Shown here piece after piece: positions 44,484 through 49,861 of a stretch of DNA of 63,898 bases; the first letter of the stretch is position 1; every line of letters starts with the position of its first letter. A model generated the notes under the pieces. The model worked only from the letters and a program-made list of their open reading frames with translations, was not told the DNA's origin and did no database searches. The DNA comes from Actinomycetota bacterium (GTDB taxonomy: Bacteria; Actinomycetota; Actinomycetes; Actinomycetales; Microbacteriaceae), in contig WLGB01000001.1 of NCBI GenBank assembly GCA_009703455.1, positions 1 through 63,898 of the forward strand, written 5' to 3'. The position numbers were made by a program, and so were the translations under genes.

Positions 44484-45107
44484 ATGGCTAACTACTCACT
44501 TCCAGACCTTGAATATGACTACGCAGCGCTAGAGCCGCACATTTCGGGCCGTATCATGCAATTGCACCACGACAAGCATCACGCGGCTTATGTTTCTGGA
44601 GCTAACTCAGCTCTCGACTTAATGGCAGAAGCTCGAGAGAAAAATGACCTGACTTGGATAAACAAACTGCAGAAGGACCTTGCCTTTAACTTGGGTGGAC
44701 ATGTGAATCACTCGATTTTTTGGAAGAACCTTAGCCCTGATGGGGGAGACAAACCAACCGGCGAGCTAGCTGCTGCAATCGACGAATTTTTTGGAAGCTT
44801 CGATGCCTTCCGCTCGCACTTCACTGCCACCGCGATGGGTATTCAAGGTTCAGGTTGGTCAATCTTGGCTTGGGACACTCTGGGGCAGCGCCTGATCATC
44901 GAACAGCTTTACGACCAGCAGGGAAATCTTGTGGCCGCTTCAATTCCATTATTAATGCTGGACATGTGGGAGCACGCGTTCTACTTGGATTATCAGAACG
45001 TCAAGGCAGACTACGTCACAGCGTTTTGGAAAATTGTTGCCTGGGGCGATGTCCAGGCTCGTTTTAAGGCAGCCCGAGACCAAACCAATGGCTTACTGCT
45101 AGTCTAA
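44484..45107 (+). CDS. sodA: Superoxide dismutase (Mn-type signatures)
   Basis: [35 protein letters not shown]. Confidence 0.96.
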
Positions 45108-48213: not shown

Positions 48214-48459
48214 ATGGCAGCTATTCAAATCGCCCTGCAGGTGCTTCTTGCTATCACTAGCTTGTTGCTGATACTGATGATCCTTCTGCACAAAGGGCGC
48301 GGTGGTGGGCTTTCTGACATGTTTGGAGGCGGTGTCACTTCGACCATGGCCTCCTCTGGTGTTGCTGAGCGAAACTTGAACCGAATCACCATAATCTTGG
48401 GACTTGTCTGGATCTCAACAATTATCGGACTTGGCCTTTTCACAAGATTTGGATTCTAG
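48214..48459 (+). CDS. secG: Preprotein translocase subunit SecG
   Basis: LLHKGRGGGLSDMFGGG and ERNLNRIT; two TM helices. Confidence 0.96.
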   Translation: MAAIQIALQVLLAITSLLLILMILLHKGRGGGLSDMFGGGVTSTMASSGVAERNLNRITIILGLVWISTIIGLGLFTRFGF

Positions 48460-48468
48460 GGGACTACA

Positions 48469-49164
48469 TTGGCTAGCGGTGGTTCAGCAATCAGGGGGTC
48501 TCGCGTCGGTGCCGGGCCTATGGGCGAGCAGTACCGAGGCTTCAAATCCGAGCGGGTACAGCGCAGCTACTACTGTATAAACGGTCACGTCCAAGAGCCG
48601 ATGTTCGCAGCCCACATCGACCCGAGTGAAATTCCCGTGATGATTGATTGCCCAAACTGCGGAATGCCGGCCGGGCAAGACAAGAAGGCTCCTCCCGAAA
48701 TTGCTAAGCACGAGCCGTACAAGACACATCTGGCTTATGTCAAGGAAAGACGAACTGCAGATGAAGCCAAGGCTTTGCTAGACGAAGCACTTACCTCAAT
48801 TAGGGACAGGCGGACCAAACTAGCTCAAGAAGCGACCAAGCAAGCCAAGCTCGCTGTTGCTAAGACTGCGGCCGCAAAGATCGCTGCAGCAAAAGCCGCA
48901 GCCGCCAGGGCTGTAAAGCCCGCGAAGGTGTCGAAAATAGTTCAGAAGCCAGTCGTGAAAAAGGCGGCAACGCTAAAAGCTGCAAAGCCGGCCGCGAAGA
49001 AATCATCTAAGACTGTGGCAAAGCCATTGACCAAAAAGGTCATCAAAAAAGGGTCAAAGTCTCCCGCAAAGCCCGTTGCAAAGGCCACAAACAAAAAGAC
49101 GGTCGTCAAGAAAACCGCAAAGCTAGCAACCAAGAAGGTCACCAAAAAGGTTTCTAAAAAGTAG
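48469..49164 (+). CDS. rbpA: RbpA-family RNA polymerase-binding protein with a long Lys/Ala-rich C-terminal extension
   Basis: AIRGSRVGA N-terminus, C36/H40/C61/C64, YKTHLAYVKERR...LLDEAL sigma-interaction helix, secG-adjacent position. Residues ~116-231 are a basic low-complexity tail. Confidence 0.9.
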   Translation: MASGGSAIRGSRVGAGPMGEQYRGFKSERVQRSYYCINGHVQEPMFAAHIDPSEIPVMIDCPNCGMPAGQDKKAPPEIAKHEPYKTHLAYVKERRTADEAKALLDEALTSIRDRRTKLAQEATKQAKLAVAKTAAAKIAAAKAAAARAVKPAKVSKIVQKPVVKKAATLKAAKPAAKKSSKTVAKPLTKKVIKKGSKSPAKPVAKATNKKTVVKKTAKLATKKVTKKVSKK

Positions 49165-49861
49165 TCTCCGAGGCTGCTGCCTGATCCAGGTACCACTTAG
49201 TTATTTTTTGGCCCGAAACTTTCGCAGCAGGTAGATCTTCTCCCGCAAATACGCGCTTAACAGCCTGTGCTTTGTCGGCGCCCGCGACTAAGAACCAAAC
49301 CTCTGATGCGCTGCACAGTGCCTTGTAGCTTAGAGAGATTCTGTCCTTTGGTGGTTTAGGGGAGCGGTCCTGCGCGATTACCCAATCTCCAAAGGAGTGT
49401 CCTTCCAGTTCCGGAAAAAGTGACGCAACGTGAGCGTCGGCCCCCATACCCAGAAGAACTATGTCAAACAAAGGAGCAACCAACTCAATCTCATTAGCAA
49501 ACTGCGCTGCGGCTTGATCTAGACTCAGAGTTTCTGAAGAAGGCATTTGGTGAAGGTTTTCCTTCGGAATCGTGAGTCTTGAAAGAAGGAGTTTCTCAGC
49601 CTGTACAAAATTTCTGTCTTGGCTATCCTTTTGGACGAATCTCTCATCTCCCCACCACAATTGAAGTTTTGATAAATCAACTTTTACAAGCTCGGCGGAA
49701 AGGGCTTCCAACATCAAGTTTCCAACTGTCCCGCCTGTAAGGACGAGGTTTACCTCGTCTTGTCTTGCCAGGTAATCCTTCAGGCTCTCAGAGAGGTCCA
49801 TTGCGGCCGTGGTCGCCAGTAGCCCCGAGGATGCAAAACCTGTTCTTATGTCGAGATTCAT
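49154..49861 (-). CDS. pgl: 6-phosphogluconolactonase
   Basis: LTGGT, WGDERFV, LGMGADAHVASLFP, SPKPPxxRIS. Confidence 0.95.
   Translation of the reverse strand: MNLDIRTGFASSGLLATTAAMDLSESLKDYLARQDEVNLVLTGGTVGNLMLEALSAELVKVDLSKLQLWWGDERFVQKDSQDRNFVQAEKLLLSRLTIPKENLHQMPSSETLSLDQAAAQFANEIELVAPLFDIVLLGMGADAHVASLFPELEGHSFGDWVIAQDRSPKPPKDRISLSYKALCSASEVWFLVAGADKAQAVKRVFAGEDLPAAKVSGQKITKWYLDQAAASETTF

What the first reader, a model, noticed from the sequence alone, without database searches (positions are those of the whole stretch)
48469..49164. RbpA RNA-polymerase activator fused to a histone-H1/HupB-like basic tail
Seen: residues 1-115 form a complete RbpA-family protein, with putative zinc ligands C36, H40, C61, C64 and the KTH...ERR sigma-interaction region. 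The frame continues for ~116 more residues (nt ~48814-49164). By my count this tail has 36 Lys, abundant Ala, Pro, Val and Thr, and no acidic residue after E121. It is built from degenerate KP[AV]xK and xxKK units with varied codons, so it looks selected at the protein level rather than being a DNA repeat. Established: RbpA proteins are usually ~110-125 aa and bind RNAP and principal sigma factors; K/A/P-rich tails of this kind bind and compact DNA in mycobacterial HupB and Ku, and in histone H1. Inference: this may be a combined transcription activator and nucleoid protein that tethers holoenzyme to DNA or nucleates condensates, possibly regulated by Lys acetylation. I do not know of a description of this architecture, but I cannot search for one.
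Basis: partly seen in the sequence, partly recalled or inferred. Interest (0 to 1): 0.8.

Follow-up and report, generated by a model that had tools for sequence, protein, structure and literature searches.

The report
Second RbpA with lysine-rich tail
In some small-genome freshwater Rhodoluna bacteria, a little-studied second copy of the transcription helper RbpA carries a conserved 110-residue lysine-rich tail that likely acts as a non-specific grip on DNA; this pairing was not found in print, but such tails decorate many actinobacterial proteins.

Summary
The ORF (231 aa) has a Pfam RbpA domain (7-112) and a 116-aa tail with 36 Lys and no acid after E121. It is no artefact: 120 of 120 top homologues carry the tail, and contigs from two other studies span the junction. 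Two corrections. (1) This is not canonical RbpA. The genome has two copies; this is the secG-linked paralogue (R79->K, K76->E, W82->L), and the canonical copy elsewhere is tail-less. (2) The tail is not family-wide: long in 36 of 150 listed matches in the genus, and absent in 0 of 139 non-genus loci showing one (longest 15 aa). It has two parts: a conserved Ala/Lys helix predicted to extend the sigma-binding helix (pN/pS 0.06) and a disordered polycation (0.27). The core is predicted to bind this genome's sigma-A region 2; the tail makes no confident contact. The genus puts similar tails on sigma-A, TopA, GyrB, FtsH and YajC, and has a stand-alone H1-like protein, so a dedicated nucleoid role is unlikely. 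Best reading: an electrostatic DNA tether on a sigma-A cofactor. DdbA (DksA plus H1-like domain) is the precedent. New variant of a known kind; interest 0.4.

The parts
48469..49164 (+). Whole gene: secG-linked RbpA paralogue ('RbpA2') with lysine-rich tail, 231 aa, TTG start
48553..48675 (+). Core domain, about residues 29-69, with CHCC zinc-ribbon ligands C36/H40/C61/C64
   Evidence: beta strands in the model; same arrangement as S. coelicolor RbpA (PMC3675491 passages)
48694..48723 (+). Basic-linker equivalent, residues 76-85: K85 at the R79 position, E82 at the K76 position, K80 at the K74 position
   Evidence: alignment; 130 of 130 genus loci have K and E at the R79 and K76 positions
48724..48804 (+). 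Sigma-interaction domain, residues 86-112, with the ERR motif; predicted to touch sigma-A region 1.2-2
   Evidence: interface residues 85-112
48814..48912 (+). Conserved Ala/Lys segment, residues 116-148, predicted to continue the last sigma-binding helix
   Evidence: helix 97-148 (83-148); pN/pS 0.06
48913..49161 (+). Distal K/A/P/V/T/S-rich tail, residues 149-231, predicted disordered, ends in KK
   Evidence: pLDDT <50 for 152-231; pN/pS 0.27 with whole-codon indels; 36 of 36 long tails end in KK
48214..48459 (+). secG, directly upstream (9-nt gap with an AGGGGA ribosome-binding-like site); marks the paralogue's conserved locus
   Evidence: Pfam SecG; secG present in 130 of 130 genus loci
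49154..49861 (-). Convergent pgl (6-phosphogluconolactonase); its end overlaps the tail's last 11 nt

Best explanation
The gene encodes the second, secG-linked RbpA paralogue of a Rhodoluna-type bacterium, whose core is predicted to bind sigma-A region 2 and whose lysine-rich tail likely works as a sequence-independent electrostatic tether that keeps the factor and its RNA polymerase on DNA longer. Shown here: the anatomy, the paralogue identity, the restriction to part of one genus, and purifying selection on the tail. Predicted by models: docking of residues 85-112 on sigma-A, extension of the last helix to residue 148 (about 50 Angstrom more, by arithmetic at 1.5 Angstrom a residue), and disorder beyond residue 150. 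Inferred from tested lysine-repeat tails (TopA, Ku, HupB, DdbA): the distal polycation binds the DNA backbone without sequence preference and raises residence time or sliding. It would tune, not create, RbpA2 activity, since most relatives keep the core with no long tail. It is one case of a genus-wide habit of adding basic tails to proteins.
For: Core: Pfam RbpA; the top 23 Foldseek ranks include RbpA chains and RNA-polymerase complexes with RbpA; ERR kept in 82 of 82 secG-type sequences. Complex model with the genome's own sigma-A region 1.2-2.4: ipSAE 0.71, best of 3 controls 0.00; the mark was reached by 116 of 157 solved and 2 of 215 mismatched pairs; runs agree in at least 84% of contacts; partner pLDDT at least 80; confident contacts only at residues 85-112. 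Like complexes are solved, so this shows likeness, not binding. Tail under selection: pooled pN/pS 0.03 core, 0.06 helix, 0.27 distal over 15 chosen pairs; Lys fraction 0.33 +/- 0.03 over 36 long tails whose sequences diverge. Kept in genomes of about 1.2-1.4 Mb. Precedent: lysine repeats stabilise the TopA-DNA complex and are over-represented in DNA-binding proteins, 175 of 554 (PMC5714199, title and passages); DdbA's H1-like domain shifts plasmid DNA (PMC3643593 section 14). Placement is not random: the canonical RbpA (7 of 7 genus copies seen) and HU (29 of 29) have no tail.
Against: No DNA-binding, expression or activation data; no paper found that tests this paralogue. 94 of 130 fetched genus loci lack the long tail with the same core motifs, so it is dispensable in principle. 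It does not compensate for the K76->E change, which tail-less copies share. Similar tracts occur on proteins that need not touch DNA (FtsH, YajC, MmpL, YflT in this genome; an aquaporin-like and an ABC-ATPase-like protein in relatives, named by my reading of the sequence). For Ku, removing the tail raised DNA affinity (PMC3553676 abstract), so the sign of the effect is not certain. dS is saturated in several pairs, and aligning low-complexity text lowers pN.
Confidence: 0.55

Rival explanations
1. The tail is part of a lineage-wide charge decoration with no transcription-specific job: these low-GC freshwater lineages add basic K/A/P tracts to many abundant proteins (for solubility, stability, or general attraction to nucleic acid, ribosomes or anionic membrane), and selection acts only on charge.
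For: 13 of 1161 proxy genes in this genome carry such a tract against 2-5 after within-protein shuffling, including FtsH, YajC, MmpL, YflT, IF2 and RNase E/G. Across 29 chosen genomes, tail length tracks the net charge of the sigma-A N-terminal tract (rho 0.75) and across 27 that of the FtsH tail (rho 0.55). Tailed loci have lower GC (0.50-0.51 against 0.55; rho -0.56, n=125), and the RbpA2 core itself is more basic (rho 0.79). Freshwater proteomes are shifted basic (PMC6706942 abstract).
Against: After correcting for kinship the link is thin: contrasts r 0.73 for sigma-A but only 15 same against 11 opposite of 28; FtsH r 0.28, p 0.15; only 2 independent pairs. Neighbouring enzymes shift little (Tpi rho 0.33, Pgl 0.23). 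The proximal helix is conserved almost like the core (pN/pS 0.06). Mid-tail lineages have the same low GC without the long tail.
Confidence: 0.25
2. The protein is a true bifunctional nucleoid protein and transcription factor, like DdbA: the tail compacts or bridges the chromosome and couples that to sigma-A transcription.
For: Tail size and make-up match DdbA's 93-residue H1-like domain. It is the longest acid-free Lys tract in the genome. The genus's HU has no lysine tail.
Against: HU is equally tail-less in short-tail genomes, so there is no hand-over (29 of 29). A stand-alone H1/HC2-like protein exists in this genome (C9; Pfam HC2 28.6 bits, below the cut-off of 40), in 7 of 7 tested genomes of its clade and also in short- or mid-tail genomes G078, G148, G174, G191. 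Abundance is unknown. No Pfam H1/HC2 match on the tail.
Confidence: 0.12
3. The tail binds acidic protein segments rather than DNA, above all the D/E-rich block that follows the basic tract in sigma-A's N-terminus, and so regulates holoenzyme assembly or DNA entry.
For: Sigma-A of all 29 genomes read has a long acidic block before region 1.2; RbpA2 is predicted to sit on the same subunit.
Against: Sigma-A carries its own basic tract next to that block. The block is present whether the RbpA2 tail is long or short. It was not modelled.
Confidence: 0.08

Closest known systems
RbpA (S. coelicolor, S. venezuelae, mycobacteria; Pfam PF13397)
   Same: Same four-part anatomy, CHCC zinc ligands as S. 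coelicolor RbpA, ERR motif needed for sigma binding (PMC3675491 passages), predicted docking on sigma region 2.
   Different: Separate paralogue clade (SH-aLRT 100). E-values to solved RbpA are 6e-7 to 6e-4, against 6e-24 to 2e-19 for the C2 copy. R79->K, K76->E, W82->L. Next to secG instead of lnt/GT2. Has a 116-aa tail.
Second RbpA-annotated cluster of Streptomyces (cluster 4 of PMC13118837) and the secG-rbpA-opcA locus of Cryobacterium (PMC12943682)
   Same: Very likely the same paralogue: an RbpA-annotated gene among glycolysis and carbon-metabolism genes (passages). Found at E<=1e-25 in 197 of 301 order-level and 190 of 201 family-level genomes. I recall the name RbpB for it; the library gave no such use, so the name is unverified.
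   Different: Those papers list it only; no function or tail in the passages I saw. Outside the genus it ends 2-15 residues after the sigma-binding helix.
DdbA (SCO2075) of Streptomyces
   Same: An RNA-polymerase-modulating domain joined to an H1-like basic domain of variable length; the basic domain binds DNA (PMC3643593 abstract and section 14).
   Different: DksA-like, not RbpA; H1-like part is N-terminal; present throughout Streptomyces, whereas this tail is in a minority of one genus.
Actinobacterial lysine-repeat tails of TopA, HupB/HupS, Ku, HrdB, FtsK
   Same: K/A/P-rich low-complexity appendage; tested cases modulate DNA binding; acetylation reported for HupB and Ku (PMC5714199 and PMC7398561 passages; PMC3553676 abstract).
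   Different: Not reported on an RbpA-family protein in what I could search. Here it starts with a conserved 33-residue predicted helix, and it sits in a 50% GC streamlined genome, whereas PMC5714199 links such repeats to GC-rich genomes.

Membership tests
RbpA family (PF13397) | Profile match above curated cut-off | tested here: met
   104.6 bits against 25; no NCBIfam match at E<=0.1
RbpA family (PF13397) | Core domain with CHCC zinc ligands or the zinc-free variant | tested here: met
   C36/H40/C61/C64; strands in model; zinc itself not measured
RbpA family (PF13397) | ERR motif in the sigma-interaction domain | tested here: met
   E93-R94-R95; 82 of 82
RbpA family (PF13397) | Binds region 2 of the principal sigma factor | tested here: inconclusive
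   Model passes (0.71 against 0.00) but like complexes are solved
RbpA family (PF13397) | Stimulates sigma-A transcription | not testable with these tools
   needs in vitro transcription
Canonical RbpA orthologue | R79 and K76 in the basic linker (called absolutely conserved in PMC5302886) | tested here: not met
   K and E in 130 of 130 genus copies; the 27 canonical-type copies have R (27) and K/R (27)
Canonical RbpA orthologue | Groups with, and is the best match of, solved RbpA proteins | tested here: not met
   C2 copy is far closer; the two types split with full support (solved proteins were not in that tree)
Actinobacterial lysine-repeat (H1-like) tails | K/A/P-rich, acid-free low-complexity tract | tested here: met
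Actinobacterial lysine-repeat (H1-like) tails | Binds DNA without sequence preference | not testable with these tools
   needs EMSA
HupB/HupS or Hc2 histone-like proteins | HU domain or Pfam HC2/H1 match | tested here: not met
   only RbpA found at E<=0.1; tail has no DNA-level likeness to the genome's H1-like gene
Nucleoid-associated protein (as DdbA) | Abundant, chromosome-wide binding, condenses DNA | not testable with these tools
   no RNA holder listed; no proteomics

The most novel reading that the evidence does not exclude
Streamlined Rhodoluna, whose HU lacks the lysine tail, have moved H1-like polycations onto the transcription machine itself. A second RbpA projects a +36 tail on a rigid helical arm and, together with a sigma-A N-terminus whose charge rises with it, turns the holoenzyme into a DNA-compacting or condensate-forming particle, gained more than once in the genus and switchable by exchanging tailed RbpA2 for tail-less RbpA on the same sigma surface.
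Probability: 0.12. Interest if true: 0.75.

Novelty: new variant of a known kind. Interest (0 to 1): 0.4.

Why it matters
It points at an almost unstudied second RbpA that is widespread in Actinomycetales and differs at the very residues that let RbpA touch promoter DNA. It also gives a natural series (tails of 5 to 126 residues on a near-constant core) for asking what lysine-repeat tails do for a transcription factor. That genomes of about 1.2-1.4 Mb keep 110 extra residues under selection suggests a real benefit. If the tail only tunes non-specific DNA affinity, the finding is a modest addition to a known actinobacterial theme.

Tried and rejected
Assembly error or lost stop: rejected. DNA tandem repeat: rejected. 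Fusion with the genome's H1-like gene: no DNA likeness; all 36 long tails start with a motif also seen in 31 of 56 short and 24 of 38 mid tails, which points to growth of the native C-terminus. Tail compensates for the K76->E loss: rejected, tail-less copies share it. Tail handed over from HU: rejected, HU is tail-less in both classes (one of 29, G154, ends differently but without a Lys tail). Repeated independent origin: suggested but not shown; the best tree needs 3 changes, but the AU test does not reject one clade (p 0.21; 49 of 134 rows used). Long open frames outside the genus: 40 picked for long frames all end 2-15 residues after the helix. Tailed canonical RbpA: none among 449 candidates of 210-2000 aa, weak evidence. 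Phage copies: no match. Expression: no RNA holder listed. Promoter/terminator scan: nothing above chance. First fold with 20 close sequences was poor (mean pLDDT 53.7); a deeper alignment of residues 1-156 gave 76.5. Earlier scan notes: three look-ups, nothing. Database names for tailed relatives are 'hypothetical', 'RNA polymerase-binding protein' or a spurious 'FimV'.

Full report
Observation. The ORF at 48469-49164 (+) gives 231 residues. Pfam finds RbpA at 7-112 and nothing else. The locus is whiA-sodA-gap-pgk-tpi-secG-[gene], facing pgl-opcA-zwf-pgi-tal-tkt (secG, whiA and pgl confirmed by Pfam, the other names are my reading of the sequences). The nearest named records are Rhodoluna, 91-92% identical in the core.

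It is real. A search with residues 1-116, limited to proteins of 127-405 aa, gave 1516 hits; the 120 listed are 219-237 aa and each has a tail of 31-36 Lys with different sequence. That search could not show short forms. Contigs of runs X3 and X6 (two studies other than the possible source) cross the core/tail junction with no difference. There is no DNA array, and codons are mixed.

It is the second paralogue. The genome holds two PF13397 genes. The other, on C2, lies beside lnt and a GT2 glycosyltransferase (that this matches the ppm1 neighbourhood of mycobacterial rbpA is recalled, not checked), matches solved RbpA at E 6e-24 to 2e-19 against 6e-7 to 6e-4 for the window's gene, and ends 7 residues after the helix. 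A tree of 64 cores splits 27 canonical-type from 37 secG-type with full support. Against the mycobacterial numbering, the secG type has K for R79, E for K76 and L for W82 in 130 of 130 genus copies, while 27 of 27 canonical-type copies keep R79 and K/R76. PMC5302886 (passages) reports R79 as needed for activation and R79 and K76 as absolutely conserved. So membership in the family is met, orthology to the studied activator is not. The paralogue is widespread: 197 of 301 order-level and 190 of 201 family-level genomes. It is listed without study in PMC13118837 and, by its neighbours, PMC12943682 (passages).

Spread of the tail. One search covered 183 genus genomes and listed 150 strong matches (148 genomes; a few weaker ones were not listed). 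I fetched 130; the 20 left have open frames of at most 150 codons and cannot hold a long tail. Tails beyond residue 115 were 5-15 aa in 56, 17-25 aa in 38 and 57-126 aa in 36, with nothing between 25 and 57. So 36 of 150 are long. Outside the genus, 0 of 119 loci (10 of 129 rows dropped as genus members by name or sequence) and 0 of 20 more exceed 15 aa. Among the best 150 of 640 cluster representatives, only 2 have a Lys-rich tail, both of this type. Long tails fall in two or three places on trees of neighbouring genes, but one origin is not rejected (AU p 0.21).

Anatomy and selection. With an 82-row alignment, residues 1-156 fold with mean pLDDT 76.5: a small beta core, helix 87-94 and one helix 97-148; the top Foldseek matches are RbpA chains. 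Beyond residue 152 the model is unstructured. Over 15 close pairs that I picked from the tree, pN/pS is 0.03 in the core, 0.06 in the next 35 residues and 0.27 in the distal part, which also takes indels; Lys stays at 33 +/- 3% and 36 of 36 long tails end in KK. Synonymous sites are saturated in several pairs, so these ratios are rough. A complex model of residues 72-150 with this genome's sigma-A region 1.2-2.4 scored 0.71 against 0.00 for the best of 3 controls (mark reached by 116 of 157 solved and 2 of 215 mismatched pairs; at least 84% contact agreement; pLDDT at least 80). Confident contacts stop at residue 112. Since RbpA-sigma complexes are solved, this shows likeness only.

Context against a special role. 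Thirteen of 1161 proxy genes in this genome carry a K/A/P tract (2-5 after shuffling): this gene, sigma-A, TopA, a GyrB-family subunit, IF2, RNase E/G, FtsH, YajC, MmpL, YflT, two without a clear family, and a stand-alone H1-like protein. In 30 genomes chosen as 15 long and 15 not, HU has no lysine tail in any of 29 found, and the H1-like protein occurs in both classes. Tail length follows the net charge of the sigma-A N-terminal tract (rho 0.75, n 29) and of the FtsH tail (rho 0.55, n 27), but not the length or Lys count of the sigma-A region. With kinship removed the support is thin: 15 against 11 contrasts, and only 2 independent pairs. Tailed lineages have lower GC.

Mechanism. Most likely the core sits on sigma-A as RbpA does, K85 taking the place of R79 (inferred), the extended helix carries the polycation away from sigma (predicted), and the polycation grips DNA without sequence preference, lengthening residence (inferred from TopA, PMC5714199 passages; DdbA, abstract and section 14; Ku, abstract, where removal raised affinity). 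Confidence 0.55. Rivals: general charge decoration 0.25, true nucleoid protein 0.12, binding sigma-A's acidic block 0.08.

Novelty. Ten literature searches listed no paper on an RbpA with a lysine-rich tail. The library lacks most subscription papers, and I read no supplements. Also seen: PMC3675491 (passages), PMC4255298 (passages), PMC5121209 (term look-ups), PMC7049703 (passages), PMC7398561 (passages), PMC6706942 (abstract). The pairing looks undescribed, but both parts and the principle (polymerase factor plus H1-like domain) are known. Verdict: new variant of a known kind, interest 0.4; the boldest reading has probability about 0.12.

Noticed in passing
G000:C9:1-399 (-), locus L383; relatives L384-L396, L399, L407, L408: Stand-alone histone-H1/Hc2-like protein made of AAKK-type repeats after a short helical head (cut by the contig end here; up to about 250 aa in relatives). 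Likely the genus's real H1-like nucleoid protein, since HU lacks a tail.
   Followed up: partly
G000 C17, C3, C4, C39, C50, C51, C78, C79 (L414-L424); L400, L402, L404: The genus adds K/A/P tracts to many unrelated proteins, including membrane ones (FtsH, YajC, MmpL; aquaporin-like, ABC-ATPase-like and L15-like proteins in relatives). Many end in KKK. Odd for streamlined, 50% GC genomes; may deserve its own study.
   Followed up: partly
L193-L221, L381: Sigma-A N-terminal regions are very long (about 190-390 codons from the upstream stop) with a basic tract followed by an acidic block; the tract is nearly acid-free in long-tail lineages and mixed with Glu in many short-tail ones.
   Followed up: partly
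alignment A3: About 19 of 82 secG-type paralogues replace the zinc ligands (C36->D, H40->N, C64->S/T; C61->S in 14), an apparent zinc-free variant parallel to that of mycobacterial RbpA.
   Followed up: no
P0142, P0152, P0157, P0202: Four secG-type RbpA representatives carry a Pro/Ala/Arg linker ending in a shared small Cys/His motif, possibly a zinc finger: another fusion type.
   Followed up: no
downstream of the paralogue in L033-L162 (window 49154-49214): A stable hairpin follows the stop in 38 of 56 short-tail loci but only 8 of 38 mid and 6 of 36 long ones, where the gene abuts or overlaps the convergent pgl. GC content confounds this.
   Followed up: partly
window 44484-45107: A superoxide dismutase-like gene sits between whiA and gap in the otherwise conserved whiA-gap-pgk-tpi-secG cluster (named from the sequence, not scanned).
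   Followed up: no
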